A stretch of 64,000 nt of DNA from a virus. Location: IMG/VR virus record IMGVR_UViG_3300034630_000009, positions 8,211 through 72,210 of that record. One strand, 5' to 3'. How positions within the stretch are numbered: position 1 is the first letter of the stretch; every line of letters begins with the position of its first letter. Both the position numbers and the translations under genes were made by a program. The notes beneath the pieces are model-generated. The model saw only the letters and a program-made list of their open reading frames with translations. It ran no database searches and was not told the origin of the DNA. Below are positions 39,625-43,072 of this stretch, piece after piece.

Positions 39625-40344
39625 ATGAAACCTTCCTTTTACTGGCTGCTGCTACCAGCCGCACTTGTCTCGCTAACCTTAAGTAGTTGCTCTGGGCAGA
39701 CGACAAAAGCACCCGTTACCTCTCCTTCGCCAGTAGCCGTCGAATCACCATCACCTCAAACCGATACGTTTGACGCTGGTTTAGCCAAAGCTTCGGATGC
39801 CTCATATACCGCCAAAACGGCTGAAACTTCGGAGGATTGGGATCTGGCAGTGTCTCGCTGGCATCAAGCGATCGAGTTGATGCAAGGAGTACCAACAGGA
39901 ACTGCAAACTTTGCCCAAGCGCAAGAGAAACTGGCGGAGTACAAACGCGGTTTGCTTGCTGCCCAGAAGCGGATCACACCGAAAGAAGTTGCTTCAGCGC
40001 CTGTAGTATCTGAGCCTGAGAGCACGCCCATTGCATCAAAAGTTGATACAAGCAGTTGGTCAGAAGATCAGAAAGAGCAAGTGTTTTTAGCAGCGGTTGA
40101 TGGCACCGCGTCACCAGCAGAAAAGGCTTGGGGTGCAACGGTTTCCAACGCGAAAAAAGTTGAGATTGCCAAAGGCGCTTGCAAAGAATTTGATCGAGGC
40201 GCAACCTTCAACGACATAGGACTCGAAATCATTAAGGCTTTCGGCTCCAAGTCTGCCGCTGGTAGGTACACCGCTGCAATGGTGGGTGGTGGCGTATCAG
40301 TTTATTGTCCCGAACACCGCTCCAAAATACCTTCTAGCCACTAA
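39625..40344 (+). CDS. Lipoprotein with DUF732-like C-terminal domain
   Basis: Signal peptide with LSSC lipobox; FLAAV...AC..FDRG...YCPEH. Confidence 0.7.
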   Translation: MKPSFYWLLLPAALVSLTLSSCSGQTTKAPVTSPSPVAVESPSPQTDTFDAGLAKASDASYTAKTAETSEDWDLAVSRWHQAIELMQGVPTGTANFAQAQEKLAEYKRGLLAAQKRITPKEVASAPVVSEPESTPIASKVDTSSWSEDQKEQVFLAAVDGTASPAEKAWGATVSNAKKVEIAKGACKEFDRGATFNDIGLEIIKAFGSKSAAGRYTAAMVGGGVSVYCPEHRSKIPSSH

Positions 40345-40372
40345 CAACTCCTGACAATTCAACCTTTCACTT

Positions 40373-40402
40373 AACCCTCTATCGCACGATCGAGGGTTTC
40401 TT
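40373..40402. terminator. Hairpin repeat copy 3, between convergent genes
   Basis: AACCCTCTATCGCACGATCGAGGGTTTCTT. Confidence 0.65.
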
Positions 40403-40674
40403 TATGACTCTCCATCATGCTCTGTATTCAAAACCTGTCTAGGGAAATTAATGCCAAAATCAATCCCTAGAACGCTTTCTATCAGTCTTAGCGTCTCTTC
40501 TGGTAAAGATTGCTTCTCATCCTCAATGCGATACCAGTTTTGAACGGACATCCCTGCGGCAGCAGCAATCTGAGTAACGCTTCTAGCGTCTCCCTTCCGC
40601 GCCTCCCTGATGCGTTTTCCGAGCTCAGGTGCTTCTACTTCTACAGTCCGTACAACTCTCACATTTTGAACCAT
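40402..40674 (-). CDS. XRE-family HTH repressor
   Basis: LGKRIREARK..SVTQIAAAAGMSVQNWYRIE. Confidence 0.85.
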   Translation of the reverse strand: MVQNVRVVRTVEVEAPELGKRIREARKGDARSVTQIAAAAGMSVQNWYRIEDEKQSLPEETLRLIESVLGIDFGINFPRQVLNTEHDGES

Positions 40675-40718
40675 TAAATCACCACCTTAAAGTGTGTCAC
40701 GTCTTGAGTAATGTGTAC

Positions 40719-40790
40719 ATAGTAATGTATCACTCAACTCACGTCAAGTTTAAGTTTTAACTTGACGTGTTTAACGTAATGAGTTAATCT
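40719..40790. promoter_or_regulatory. Back-to-back sigma70 promoters sharing a palindromic operator
   Basis: CACGTCAAGTT-N8-AACTTGACGTG (40740-40769); rightward TTGACG-N17-TAATCT, leftward TTGACG-N17-TACTAT. Confidence 0.8.
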
Positions 40791-40796
40791 TAATTC

Positions 40797-41042
40797 ATGG
40801 GTGAGGGACGGGGAACAGAGAACGCCAGACACTACGCCCCCGCCACGCCGCTGAGACTCTCGCTAACCAGGCACTCAACCGGAACCTCACCCACACTCAA
40901 GACAACGCCATCACACGGTCACGCCAAGCGCCCGCCGTCACCAAAGGGCACCACGACGTAGGGTTCGTCACAGGGTCGCTGAGCAGCCAAATGGAGATTG
41001 GCTAGTGGAACGGCTTTACCGCCTCAGTCCTGAAATTACGTT
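40797..41042 (+). ncRNA. Putative structured leader/small RNA released by twister 1
   Basis: Starts at the predicted TSS; TGGGTGAGG (40798-40806) pairs with CCTCACCCA (40885-40893); five ACGCC motifs; no convincing ORF. Confidence 0.5.
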
Positions 41043-41090
41043 AATGCCAGCGAGGACGGTCTCAACTCCGTGTAAAGGCAGAGAGGCGTA
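41037..41090 (+). ncRNA. Twister ribozyme (type P1), copy 1; predicted cleavage U41042/A41043
   Basis: UACGU-UAA-UGCC-AG-CGAG-G-ACGG-UCUC-AACU-CCGU-GUAAA-GGCA-GAGAG-GCGUA: P1, P2, P4 and both pseudoknots can pair. Confidence 0.85.
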
Positions 41091-41111
41091 CTTTTCAACT
41101 GGAGAAACAAA

Positions 41112-41327
41112 ATGAAAACCACCGTAACGTTTGAAGAACTCAGAAAACTGCACATTGGCGACCAACTTGAAAATCCTTCCCGTTGCGGAGTGGCTGAAGT
41201 CATCCATAACGAGGAGCATTGCGTTGCGATCAGGGTCATCGACGGAGACGAAAGTCTCCGTATTGGAGCGACCATCAGCTATAGAGAGTCTGAGAGTTTG
41301 CACGGAGGATGGGAAATTCCTCAATAA
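41112..41327 (+). CDS. Small protein (71 aa) between the two ribozymes
   Basis: GGAGA RBS and ATG. Confidence 0.7.
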   Translation: MKTTVTFEELRKLHIGDQLENPSRCGVAEVIHNEEHCVAIRVIDGDESLRIGATISYRESESLHGGWEIPQ

Positions 41328-41372
41328 CTTTTAGAGCCGATCGCAGTTTTGGAGGCAAGCTTTAACGCCTCC

Positions 41373-41426
41373 CGCTAACGTGCCAACGCCCGATTCCAAG
41401 TTCGGGGGGAAGAAGACGGAGGAGCG
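41373..41426 (+). ncRNA. Twister ribozyme (type P1), copy 2; predicted cleavage U41376/A41377
   Basis: CGC-UAA-CGU-GC-CAAC-G-CCCGA-UUCC-AAGU-UCGGG-GGGAAGAAG-ACG-GAGGA-GCG. Confidence 0.8.
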
Positions 41427-41476
41427 TACACCAACAGTTAACGGAGTAAAACAATAACCACTTACAAAGACACACC

Positions 41477-41626
41477 ATGAGTAAAAACCAAAAGCCCAAT
41501 GTCTATACGCCCACAGGAGCGGGCACCGTCGCCTCCAAAGATGTCAAAAACAACGAGGTAACGGTAACGGTCGTCTATCCCAATGGCGATCGAACAACCT
41601 GGTCTGACGACGAGGTTGTTTATTGA
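41477..41626 (+). CDS. Small protein (49 aa, not in ORF track) after twister 2
   Basis: MSKNQKPNVYTPTGAGTVASKDVKNNEVTVTVVYPNGDRTTWSDDEVVY; SH3/KOW-like pattern. Confidence 0.6.
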   Translation: MSKNQKPNVYTPTGAGTVASKDVKNNEVTVTVVYPNGDRTTWSDDEVVY

Positions 41627-41638
41627 TCGCCGCGCAGC

Positions 41639-41842
41639 TTAGAGTAAGCCATCTTCCCGCAACTTTGCTTCCACCGCCGATCGCACGTAATCAGCTTTTG
41701 CTGTGCCCATCGCACGCAAGAGCGCGTCGATCGTGGGCGGAAATTTAAAAGATAACGGACGTTGATCGCTGGTTGTCCCTAGACCTTTGCTCCATTGTTT
41801 TTTTGCTGCTGCCGCTTCTGGATTATGTTTACGTTTTGCCAT
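41639..41842 (-). CDS. RHH-like DNA-binding protein
   Basis: PLSFKFPPTIDALLRAM...ADYVRSAVEAKL. Confidence 0.65.
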   Translation of the reverse strand: MAKRKHNPEAAAAKKQWSKGLGTTSDQRPLSFKFPPTIDALLRAMGTAKADYVRSAVEAKLREDGLL

Positions 41843-42235
41843 ATCGATCCTTTATCTTTTTACTACTATAGCGCGTAAACTCCCAGCAAAATCAGTAAAA
41901 CTACTGAGGACTGCGAGTAGACGCGCTGCTAAGATGGACGCATCACTTCAAGAGGTTTTTCAATGCACGCACCCACCCCTGCCGAACGCGCCGCTCTGAT
42001 CGCCCCCCACTTGGGCGTTTCGCGCCCCTTCAGCGCTGCTGGCTCGTCCCTGATCGACCAGATCCGAGAGCCGCTGTTTGAGGCGCAGTCGCTCGATCCA
42101 GCCGAAGAAGCGCGGCTACTGGCTGCTCTGTCCGTCCAGATCGCCGGACGGCTGGCAGCGCTCCACGGTTGCCGCTAGACCGCGAGGGGCGGGTTGCGCC
42201 GCCCCCTTTGCACCCCACACCCCACACCCCACACC

Positions 42236-42709
42236 ATGCAATCCTTAATCGCCCACTACAACACCGCCGCTTTTCTCCGCACCTTCGCTGCCTCCTGCTA
42301 CGTCGCTGGCAAATTGGTTTACGGCGAGATCAAGTCGATCGCGCTTGAACTCTGGACCATCTACACCAGCGAACGAGCGAAGCGGCTCTACACCTTCCTG
42401 ATCCTCTCGGTCATTGCCCTTGCTTGGATGGGTGCCTTCGCTGCCGTCTGGTTGGGCAATCGCAGCCGCGAACAATTTGACCGCTTCGTTGCTTGGCGCG
42501 ATCGGTTCATCGCTTCCCATCTAGAGCAGCCTTCCGAGTGCCTGGTCGGTGACGAAATTGCTAAAGCGGGTTGCGCTGTGATTGCTGAACTCTTTGCTCA
42601 AGCCGATGCCATCATGGCTCACCCGGTTTACGCTGATGCACCCGCCACACCCATCAAGCGCCGTCGCAAGGTCAAAGGTTTTCAATCCGCACAGGAGGTG
42701 ATCGCCTAA
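42236..42709 (+). CDS. Hypothetical membrane protein
   Basis: TM segment; ends in RRRKVKGF. Confidence 0.55.
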   Translation: MQSLIAHYNTAAFLRTFAASCYVAGKLVYGEIKSIALELWTIYTSERAKRLYTFLILSVIALAWMGAFAAVWLGNRSREQFDRFVAWRDRFIASHLEQPSECLVGDEIAKAGCAVIAELFAQADAIMAHPVYADAPATPIKRRRKVKGFQSAQEVIA

Positions 42710-43072
42710 CAGACCGCTGCTGCCTGCGAACAGCGTGAGCGATCGCGCAAACACCTATTTCATTCATTTCATTACTAAGGAGAAAGTAAAAATGGATCGC
42801 TACTTTTACAAAGAGATGGATGGCTGGTACGACACGCTGAGATCCAGCCTCAGCCCAGCCATACTGTCGAACAAAGGTTGGACTGAATGCAGCGAAAGCG
42901 CATTCCATGCCTACCGTGAGAAGAATGCAATGCGGAATGCTGGCTGGTAAACCGTCAAAACGAAGATTACAGAGACTAGAGATTAACGCGCAACGCAAAA
43001 GAGCGCCCCGACTGCAATCGGAAGCGCTCTCAACAAAGTCCATCCAACTAGCACAGAAGGTAGACAAGCACC

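What the first reader, a model, noticed from the sequence alone, without database searches (positions are those of the whole stretch)
40797..41626. Tandem twister ribozymes process the early transcript and could excise a circularisable 334-nt coding RNA
Seen: a consensus promoter (TSS ~40797) is followed by a leader, twister-like 1 (41037-41090), a 71-aa ORF, twister-like 2 (41373-41426) and a 49-aa ORF. The two ribozymes differ in sequence but keep P1/P2/P4, the UAA cleavage loop and compensating pseudoknot pairs (AG/CU versus GC/GU; UCUC/GAGAG versus UUCC/GAGGA). Established: twister cleavage leaves 5'-OH and 2',3'-cyclic phosphate ends, which RtcB ligates; this is the basis of the engineered Tornado circRNA system. 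Inference: double cleavage releases 41043-41376 (334 nt) with a complete RBS and ORF. Joining its ends rebuilds a chimeric twister, because CGC 41373-75 pairs with GCG 41086-88. This could be a natural phage circular-mRNA cassette. The simpler alternative is that each ribozyme gives its downstream ORF a 5'-OH end that changes mRNA stability.
Basis: partly seen in the sequence, partly recalled or inferred. Interest (0 to 1): 0.93.

Follow-up and report, generated by a model that had tools for sequence, protein, structure and literature searches.

The report
Two twister ribozymes flank a prophage gene
A prophage in a cyanobacterial genome carries one clear and one divergent self-cutting twister RNA on either side of a tiny early gene, which most likely trims the early messenger RNA into pieces; nothing here shows that a circular RNA is made.

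Summary
The observation largely holds. Twister 1 (41038-41089) is the best Rfam match in the whole window (twister-P1, 41 bits, E 1.5e-5, below the 67.2-bit gathering score because P3 is absent). Twister 2 (41372-41427) is weak by Rfam (13.7 bits, E 1.9). A model built only from other genomes' twisters scores it 22 bits (E about 0.001). It forms all five pseudoknot pairs, and its counterpart in a same-genus genome (G075) keeps P4 through three double changes. The window is a tailed prophage, and the element sits just after the repressor/operator region.

The promoter is not consensus (-10 matches 3 of 6). ORF71 and ORF49 have no relatives but show coding-like codon usage. G075 has the same leader and one twister but lacks exactly the 334-nt ORF71 unit. 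The junction lies 1-4 nt from the cut site.

The host genome has no RtcB, and no RNA data exist, so the circular-mRNA idea is unsupported.

Tandem ribozymes flanking prophage genes, with circles suggested, were described for hammerheads in 2011.

Verdict: real ribozymes that most likely process mRNA; a new member of a known kind.

The parts
40402..40674 (-). 90-aa helix-turn-helix repressor-like gene, divergent from the ribozyme transcript
   Evidence: Pfam HTH_31 E 2.3e-7; PHROG transcriptional repressor/regulator families
40740..40769 (.). 14-nt inverted repeat (candidate operator) that holds the TTGACG -35 boxes of both divergent promoters
   Evidence: the repeat finder I1, 93% complementary, 2 nt between arms; minus-strand promoter TTGACG-17-TACTAT scores 9/12
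40763..40791 (+). Candidate rightward promoter: -35 TTGACG, 17-nt spacer, -10 TAATCT (3 of 6)
   Evidence: Read; not called by the scan; homology with G075 starts at 40793
40797..41042 (+). About 246-nt non-coding leader, 88% identical to the leader in G075; it would be the 5' cleavage product of twister 1
   Evidence: Indels of 1-3 nt against G075 break the 54-aa ORF. No more stable than shuffles (z +1.52). No Rfam family
41038..41089 (+). Twister 1, type P1, no P3; predicted cut between U41042 and A41043
   Evidence: Rfam RF03160 41 bits; R2 38.7 bits, E 3.7e-8; P1 4/4, P2 4/4, T1 3/3, T2 2/2
41112..41327 (+). ORF71, a small gene without relatives, with GGAG at 41101-41104
   Evidence: only itself found. 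Codon-usage score 0.158 in frame against -0.16 and -0.63 out of frame; real genes average 0.188. The Atlas's own model has pLDDT 0.77, pTM 0.68
41351..41372 (+). Hairpin GGAGGC-N10-GCCUCC abutting P1 of twister 2; it would be the 3'-terminal stem-loop of the ORF71 RNA after cleavage
   Evidence: Read; it overlaps the 13-mer GCTTTAACGCCTC (41359-41371), which is also found with 12 of 13 matches at 41013-41025
41372..41427 (+). Twister 2, a divergent type-P1 twister without P3, with a long 3' linker and P2 of 3 pairs; predicted cut between U41376 and A41377
   Evidence: Rfam 13.7 bits, E 1.9; R2 22 bits, E 0.0013-0.0016; P4 5/5, T1 3/3, T2 2/2; the G075 counterpart keeps P4 through 3 double changes
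41477..41626 (+). ORF49, a small gene without relatives and without a clear Shine-Dalgarno sequence
   Evidence: codon-usage score 0.264 in frame
41043..41376 (+). 334-nt unit between the two predicted cuts; G075 lacks a 334-nt unit (41039/41042 to 41372/41375) that coincides with this interval to within 1-4 nt
   Evidence: Predicted fold pairs 41083-41089 with 41363-41369; z -1.97, 3 of 100 shuffles fold as well

Best explanation
The window is a tailed prophage of a cyanobacterium of the family Leptolyngbyaceae. Its rightward early transcript starts about 40797, next to a repressor gene and a palindromic operator.

The transcript carries two type-P1 twister ribozymes that cut the RNA as it is made. 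Twister 1 cuts at U41042|A41043. Twister 2 cuts at U41376|A41377. This gives three products:
- a leader of about 246 nt ending in a 2',3'-cyclic phosphate;
- a 334-nt single-gene RNA whose 5' end is the folded twister body with a 5'-OH, followed by the ribosome-binding site and ORF71, and whose 3' end is a hairpin plus cyclic phosphate;
- the downstream mRNA, beginning with the twister 2 body and ORF49.

The likely purpose is to uncouple the stability and translation of the early genes from the leader and from each other.

Shown here: the motifs, their statistics, their covariation and the prophage context. Inferred: cleavage itself, the end chemistry (established for the twister class) and the effect on expression.

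The ORF71 unit with its own twister looks like a module gained or lost by recombination inside the shared P1/cut-site sequence.
For: - Twister 1: Rfam; independent family model.
- Twister 2: 22 bits, E about 0.001 with a model that never saw it. All five pseudoknot pairs form although pseudoknots are not in the model; by my own arithmetic (6/16)^5 is about 0.007 by chance.
- The G075 counterpart changes P4 from CCCGA/UCGGG to CUGCA/UGCAG, three double changes, with loops conserved.
- The long 3' linker has precedent in the P3-less twisters of the same bacterial family.
- Both twisters are on the strand of the flanking ORFs and lie between genes.
- Prophage identity: tape measure, portal, terminase, protease, major head protein, serine integrase, DnaB, Rha, HTH repressor.
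- Twister-P1 matches at E<=0.01 occur in 21 of 90 genomes of the family and in 0 of 14 control genomes. In the loci printed they lie between genes ahead of same-strand small ORFs (not tallied).
- Literature: processing of polycistronic prophage RNAs by flanking hammerheads (PMC3088659, passages). Bacterial twister and hammerhead roles in mRNA processing are suggested but unproven (PMC6765202, passages).
- P3 is optional and P1 is dispensable for cleavage (PMC5408937, passages).
Against: - No cleavage data of any kind. No RNA run holds the stretch.
- Neither twister reaches Rfam's gathering score.
- Twister 2 is close to the noise level of the family model: a spurious hit scores 18.6 bits. It has a non-standard innermost P2 pair and a purine-rich 9-nt linker where the consensus has UAAA, so it may be slow or inactive.
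- The G075 counterpart scores only 18.2 bits (E 0.014-0.017) and is not listed by Rfam at E<=10.
- The promoter is weak by consensus.
- ORF71 and ORF49 have no homologues, so the benefit of processing cannot be tied to a known function.
- A weak terminator-like hairpin at 41305-41322 lies between ORF71 and twister 2 (1 found against 2.0 expected by chance).
Confidence: 0.6

Rival explanations
1. Only twister 1 is an active ribozyme. Twister 2 is a decayed or structurally conserved but catalytically dead twister-like hairpin, so the transcript is cut once. That cut removes the leader, and ORF71 and ORF49 stay on one RNA.
For: Rfam scores twister 2 at 13.7 bits, E 1.9. It has a non-standard innermost P2 pair and a 4-nt insertion next to the conserved A-rich linker. 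The G075 counterpart is not listed by Rfam at E<=10 and scores 18.2 bits with R2, at the noise level.
Against: In G075 this type is the only twister after the same conserved leader, and it kept P4 through three double changes, with T1, T2 and the loops intact. That is the pattern of a selected fold. Long A/G-rich linkers occur in higher-scoring P3-less twisters of the family.
Confidence: 0.17
2. The main product is the leader. Twister 1 serves to give a 246-nt non-coding leader RNA a precise 3' end, and that RNA acts as a regulator of the prophage switch. ORF processing is secondary.
For: The leader is the best conserved part between the two prophages: 88% over 255 nt, starting at the predicted start site, while the flanks differ. 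It is non-coding, because indels break the frame. In other genomes of the family, a conserved two-hairpin motif with no Rfam family sits directly 5' of the twister.
Against: The leader folds no better than shuffles (z +1.52). The two-hairpin motif model does not hit the window or G075 at E<=1. Only two genomes carry this leader. No target is known.
Confidence: 0.1
3. Circular mRNA. Double cleavage frees the 334-nt ORF71 RNA, and its 5'-OH and cyclic-phosphate ends are joined into a circle that rebuilds a twister and is translated.
For: The ends are compatible: CGC 41373-75 pairs with GCG 41086-88, so the circle would carry a complete twister 1. The predicted fold brings the two ends together through 41083-89 pairing with 41363-69. 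The unit contains a ribosome-binding site and a complete ORF. The same 334-nt unit is the indel against G075. The idea was raised for prophage hammerheads in PMC3088659.
Against: The host genome has no RtcB (PF01139: 0 matches in a 100% complete genome, while 10 of 14 controls ring). There is no T4-type Rnl1 match, though that control was silent. Only a LigT-like 2H protein and a weak PF09414 match were found. The rebuilt twister would re-cut the circle. No twister-ORF-twister unit exists in the other 89 genomes of the family. The one other tandem pair (L024) holds no ORF, and its P1 strands are not interchangeable.
Confidence: 0.07
4. Chance resemblance: neither element is a ribozyme.
For: Both are below the Rfam gathering score.
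Against: E 1.5e-5 for twister 1 over the whole window and all families. The pseudoknots are compensated. Related elements in 21 of 90 family genomes against 0 of 14 controls.
Confidence: 0.02

Closest known systems
Type-P1 twister ribozymes (Rfam RF03160; class described by Roth et al. 2014, which I could not open; features taken from the review PMC5408937)
   Same: P1-P2-P4 stack, cut between U and a conserved A in the P1/P2 junction, T1 and T2 pseudoknots between L4 and the internal loops, termini in P1, location near phage genes.
   Different: Both copies lack P3 and score under the gathering threshold. Twister 1 has an AG/CU T2. Twister 2 has a 3-pair P2 and a 9-nt purine-rich linker in place of UAAA. 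The host is a cyanobacterium: my search for 'twister ribozyme' plus 'cyanobacteria' listed 8 papers, none on this by title.
Arrays of hammerhead ribozymes flanking single genes in prophages (Perreault et al. 2011, PMC3088659, passages read)
   Same: Several self-cleaving ribozymes on one strand bracket an individual small gene in a prophage. Processing into single-gene mRNAs was proposed, with spliced or circular products named as a possibility.
   Different: A different ribozyme class (twister) and a different host phylum. Here a related 'empty site' genome is available.
Tornado circular-RNA expression system (twister ribozymes flanking an insert, ends joined by RtcB). Recalled; only search listings that mention twister, RtcB and circular RNA were seen
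   Same: An insert flanked by two twisters, so that cleavage leaves a 5'-OH and a 2',3'-cyclic phosphate on one fragment whose ends can pair.
   Different: Natural, with both ribozymes type P1, so each twister body stays attached 5' of its downstream RNA. The host lacks RtcB. No circle was observed.
Ribozyme-bearing circular RNAs (viroid-like RNAs, retrozymes), as reviewed in PMC6765202
   Same: Ribozyme cleavage defines unit-length RNA that can be ligated.
   Different: Those are repeated or replicating non-coding or retroelement units. This is a single-copy DNA-encoded unit inside a dsDNA prophage. The only reverse transcriptase match in the genome is on another contig.

Membership tests
Twister ribozyme, type P1 (RF03160): twister 1 | Covariance-model score at or above Rfam's gathering score (67.2 bits) | tested here: not met
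   41.0 bits. The alignment shows the loss comes from the deleted P3. E 1.5e-5 for the whole window.
Twister ribozyme, type P1 (RF03160): twister 1 | Essential stems P1, P2, P4 (P3 optional, PMC5408937) | tested here: met
   P1 4/4 (one G-U), P2 4/4, P4 ACGG/CCGU.
Twister ribozyme, type P1 (RF03160): twister 1 | Pseudoknots T1 and T2 | tested here: met
   T1 C-G, U-A, C-G. T2 A-U, G-C. Both are compensated against the family consensus.
Twister ribozyme, type P1 (RF03160): twister 2 | Covariance-model score at or above the gathering score, or a significant E-value | tested here: not met
   Rfam 13.7 bits, E 1.9. The independent family model R2 gives 22 bits, E 0.0013-0.0016, with noise up to 18.6 bits.
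Twister ribozyme, type P1 (RF03160): twister 2 | Stems P1, P2, P4 | tested here: inconclusive
   P1 3/4, P4 5/5, P2 3 standard pairs plus one non-standard pair or bulge. In G075, P2 needs a bulged A.
Twister ribozyme, type P1 (RF03160): twister 2 | Pseudoknots T1 and T2 and the conserved loop nucleotides (UAA at the cut, L4 U.CCAAG.., GAG after P2) | tested here: met
   T1 3/3 and T2 2/2 (one G-U). UAA, UUCCAAGU and GAGGA are present. The A-rich linker reads AAGAA instead of UAAA.
Twister ribozyme (both copies) | Site-specific Mg-dependent self-cleavage giving 5'-OH and 2',3'-cyclic phosphate | not testable with these tools
   No RNA run holds the stretch. Contigs cannot show RNA ends.
Prophage gene flanked by self-cleaving ribozymes (Perreault 2011 type) | Two or more ribozymes on the gene's strand bracketing a gene inside a prophage | tested here: met
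   with the reservation on twister 2.
Ribozyme-plus-ligase circular RNA cassette (Tornado-like) | A ligase able to join 2',3'-cyclic phosphate to 5'-OH (RtcB) in the host or phage | tested here: not met
   PF01139: 0 matches in G000 (100% complete); 10 of 14 controls ring.
Ribozyme-plus-ligase circular RNA cassette (Tornado-like) | Ends of the excised RNA brought together by pairing | tested here: met
   CGC 41373-75 pairs with GCG 41086-88. The MFE fold pairs 41083-89 with 41363-69.
Ribozyme-plus-ligase circular RNA cassette (Tornado-like) | Junction-spanning circular product | not testable with these tools
   No RNA data.

The most novel reading that the evidence does not exclude
The 334-nt ORF71 unit may be a ribozyme-delimited mobile module. 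Three states are seen or implied, and each carries a complete twister. The 'empty site' (G075) has one twister. The 'occupied site' (this window) has two unrelated twisters that share an interchangeable P1 (…CG[U/C]|UAA… paired with GCGUAC). The excised, joined unit would again carry a complete twister. That is the pattern expected if units are excised, circularised and inserted at twister cut sites, at the RNA level or as DNA circles using the cut-site core. Such a circle could also serve as a circular mRNA.
Probability: 0.07. Interest if true: 0.9.

Novelty: new member of a known kind. Interest (0 to 1): 0.5.

Why it matters
The biological role of bacterial twister and hammerhead ribozymes is still called largely elusive (PMC6765202).

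This locus offers a compact test system: a repressor-controlled prophage promoter, a conserved leader, two different twisters, one small gene between them, and a natural relative without the unit.

It also shows that twisters are common in Leptolyngbyaceae mobile elements. About a quarter of 90 genomes carry one, yet all score under Rfam's threshold, so standard annotation misses them.

If the unit did form circles in a host without RtcB, that would point to an unknown joining route. If it does not, the locus is still a clean case for measuring how ribozyme-made ends affect mRNA fate in cyanobacteria.

Tried and rejected
- Default Rfam scan of the window: no hit. Rejected as a verdict, because the permissive scan shows a significant sub-threshold twister.
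- RNA evidence: no RNA holder listed. Laying the two DNA-labelled runs gave only the probable source run, plus two 151-nt contigs in a second run. Contigs cannot show RNA ends, so this is not used as evidence.
- Relatives of the leader or of twister 2. Searches covered order (90 genomes), phylum (401 genomes), viral contigs, metagenome contigs and genome contigs. Only G075, or one record with two identical copies, was found. The patterns had one N too many and could not have matched; they were corrected.
- The 45-nt DNA matches in G085 and G348 to the start of ORF71 are unrelated genes.
- ORF71 and ORF49 homologues: none. The Atlas gave only weak leads below 0.9, among them small phage proteins, DUF4222 and KilR.
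- I thought the small divergent ORFs upstream of other family twisters were ribbon-helix-helix repressors. Pfam supports this above its cut-off for only 1 of the 10 small upstream ORFs tested, and that one (L032) lies on the twister's own strand, not divergent, so the claim is dropped.
- I thought the window's leader might be a diverged copy of the two-hairpin motif seen upstream of other twisters. Model R3 does not hit the window or G075 at E<=1, so this is dropped.
- RNAalifold on a MAFFT alignment of the leaders predicted no pairs because the hairpins were misaligned. Stems were then read per sequence (that script stopped with an error at the last row, G075).
- Reverse transcriptase in the prophage: the only PF00078 match lies on another contig.
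- ACGCC occurs 5 times in the leader (0.28 expected). The motif was chosen after looking, and only 3 copies are kept in G075, so it is not built upon.
- The supplements of the papers were closed. The gene-context figures of PMC3088659 and the alignments of the twister papers may bear on how common twister-gene-twister units are.

Full report
**What is there.**
- After a palindrome (40740-40769) that holds two divergent TTGACG boxes comes a 246-nt leader.
- Next is a twister-like element at 41038-41089, then ORF71 (41112-41327, GGAG 7 nt before the ATG).
- Then comes a second twister-like element at 41372-41427, followed by ORF49 at 41477-41626.
- The promoter is not 'consensus'. Its -10 TAATCT matches 3 of 6, and the scan did not call it. 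The scan did call the leftward promoter of the 90-aa HTH repressor gene at 40402-40674.
- The start near 40797 is supported indirectly, because similarity to the related prophage begins at 40793.

**Setting.** The window is a tailed prophage.
- Structural and integration genes: tape measure, a portal/minor-head fusion, protease, large terminase, major head protein and serine integrase.
- Early-region genes: Rha-like regulator, DnaB-type helicase, a PAPS-reductase-like gene and the HTH repressor.
- A genome contigs record titled 'MAG: Stenomitos rutilans HA7619-LM2' carries the twister 2-type pattern twice. That species belongs to the Leptolyngbyaceae, Cyanobacteriota. The genome search lists the one relative with the same leader, G075, as the same genus as the window's genome.

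**Twister 1.**
- The default Rfam scan finds nothing. The permissive scan gives twister-P1 at 41038-41089 with 41.0 bits: E 2.3e-7 in 1 kb, E 1.5e-5 for the whole window against all 4227 families, where it is the best hit, and E 3.7e-7 genome-wide.
- The alignment shows that only the optional P3 is missing. According to the review PMC5408937 (passages), P1, P2 and P4 are the essential stems, P3 is present in 78% of twisters, and P1 is dispensable for cleavage.
- A model built from 11 twisters of other genomes (R2) scores it 38.7 bits, E 3.7e-8.
- Its unusual loop letters are compensated. T1 is C-G, U-A, C-G and T2 is A-U, G-C.

**Twister 2.**
- Rfam gives 13.7 bits, E 1.9 even in a 121-nt search, so on its own it would not be called.
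- Three things raise it. R2, which never saw it, ranks it second in the whole window at 22 bits (E 0.0013), although one spurious hit reaches 18.6 bits. In 84 kb of related loci it scores E 0.0016, and every other hit there lies at a twister site also scored by Rfam or is the G075 counterpart.
- All five pseudoknot pairs form, one of them a G-U, although pseudoknots are not part of the model.
- G075 has a counterpart after the same leader in which P4 changed from CCCGA/UCGGG to CUGCA/UGCAG. That is three double changes, while L4, the GCC, the GAGGA and P1 stayed the same.
- Its long purine-rich 3' linker resembles the linkers of the P3-less twisters of the family, such as UUGAGAAA.
- Points against: P2 has only three standard pairs (a bulged A is needed in G075). 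The consensus UAAA reads AAGAA after a 4-nt insertion. The G075 copy scores 18.2 bits, at noise level, and Rfam does not list it at E<=10.
- I put about 0.75-0.8 on a true twister fold, and less on full activity.

**The family picture.**
- Twister-P1 matches at E<=0.01 occur in 21 of 90 genomes of the family, none over the gathering score, and in 0 of 14 control genomes. My model R1 finds 26 matches in 22 of 90 genomes.
- T1 and T2 covary across 27 aligned sequences. At the middle T1 pair the counts are 16 C-G, 6 A-U, 1 U-A and 1 U-G.
- In the loci printed, the twisters lie between genes ahead of same-strand small ORFs in mobile-element-like contexts (not tallied).
- In one search, only G000 has two hits within 1 kb of each other.
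- One other tandem pair exists, in L024 (36.9 and 40.3 bits by Rfam). It is 111 nt apart with no ORF between, and its P1 strands are not interchangeable.

**The comparison with G075.**
- G075 matches window 40793-41047 at 88% identity and then continues directly with 41373-41433.
- The three positions that tell the copies apart are 41038, 41041 and 41045. They place the junction between 41038 and 41041, or 41044 if one substitution is allowed. That is 1-4 nt before the cut at 41042/41043.
- The missing piece is 334 nt, the same as the predicted excised RNA.
- Twister 1 resembles twisters of other genera (L021, L031, L034 share its P4), while twister 2 is found only here and in G075. The pair is therefore not a local duplication.
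- Yet both share the P1 3' strand and flank GCGUAC.

This pattern is what the circle or mobile-module idea predicts. A plainer cause fits as well. P2, P4, T1 and T2 are each internally compensated and differ between the two twisters. Only crossovers in the shared P1/cut-site core (CG[U/C]UAA) or at the 3' end would therefore leave working ribozymes. Selection alone would place surviving junctions there (my inference). Elsewhere in the family, mosaic breakpoints lie at various distances from the twister. A small ORF family sits after the twister in L029 and L030 but before it in L011.

**The circle model.**
- The pairing claims are right.
- The host genome, 100% complete by markers, has no RtcB, while 10 of 14 control genomes ring. 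It has a LigT-like 2H protein and a weak PF09414 match. Rnl1 was not found, but that control was silent.
- No RNA data exist.
- The idea itself is in print for prophage hammerheads (PMC3088659).
- My searches for a natural twister circle in prophages found only engineered systems by title.

**The genes.**
- ORF71 and ORF49 have no relatives among 5.8 billion clustered proteins or 1.84 billion representatives.
- Their codon usage is gene-like in frame: 0.158 and 0.264, against a mean of 0.188 for real genes and an off-frame mean of -0.365.
- The Atlas's own model of ORF71 has pLDDT 0.77.
- The 54-aa ORF in the leader is broken by indels in G075.

**Verdict.** These are real twister ribozymes, one firm and one probable, in the early leader of a cyanobacterial prophage. 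They most likely process the early RNA (confidence 0.6). The circular-mRNA reading stays possible but unsupported (about 0.07).

This is a new member of a known kind. It is made more useful by a natural empty-site relative and by the finding that such sub-threshold twisters are common in this bacterial family. An earlier first-stage note on the same stretch gave the same reading, which is not independent evidence.

Noticed in passing
Loci L009-L034 (other genomes of the family): Twister-P1-like ribozymes occur in 21 of 90 (Rfam model) or 22 of 90 (model R1) genomes of the family. All are under Rfam's gathering score, so routine annotation would miss them. T1 and T2 covary.
   Followed up: partly
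L010:1453-1496(+), L015:1266-1309(-), L017:1460-1501(+), L021:1558-1602(-), L011:1442-1483(-); weaker in L031, L034, L030, L012, L016: A conserved two-hairpin RNA motif (GAC, hairpin 1, GCGGAR, hairpin 2, UGAGAAA) lies directly 5' of the twister. Both stems covary, for example CUCAC/GUGAG, CUCUC/GAGAG, CUCUU/AAGAG, CUGCU/AGCAG. No Rfam family matches it. Model R3 finds it in L011 about 290 nt upstream, with an ORF in between. It is not detected in the window.
   Followed up: partly
L024:1319-1389(-) and L024:1501-1581(-): A second case of tandem twisters (40.3 and 36.9 bits). They are 111 nt apart with no ORF between, and the first follows a terminator-like hairpin.
   Followed up: partly
window 41377-41527 and 41526-41676: In run X2 (labelled 'DNA?', a different study from the probable source), the only material on 40000-43000 is two 151-nt contigs. 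The first begins exactly at 41377, the first base after the predicted twister 2 cut. Contigs cannot show RNA ends, so this is a curiosity only.
   Followed up: no
window 41013-41025 and 41359-41371: A 13-mer (GCTTTACCGCCTC / GCTTTAACGCCTC, 12 of 13 identical) lies upstream of both twisters. It is complementary to the GAGGCG-type 3' side of the ribozymes. Before twister 2 it forms the 3' arm of the hairpin at 41351-41372. It could compete with ribozyme folding.
   Followed up: partly
window 40822-40925: ACGCC occurs 5 times in the leader (0.28 expected from the window). Only 3 copies are kept in G075.
   Followed up: yes
window 41639-41842 (-): A 67-aa ORF converges on ORF49 only 13 nt after its stop codon, so the early transcript runs into an opposing gene. 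It has no Pfam or PHROG match.
   Followed up: no
L037 / L038 (one contig, two places about 102 kb apart): The leader-twister region of the relative lies in a repeat that is at least 9.7 kb long and 100% identical. This is either a duplicated prophage segment or an assembly repeat.
   Followed up: no
L029, L030, L012 (after the twister) and L011 (before it): A family of small ORFs ending in …NPWELP…IAA sits on different sides of closely related twisters, which shows module shuffling around the ribozyme.
   Followed up: no
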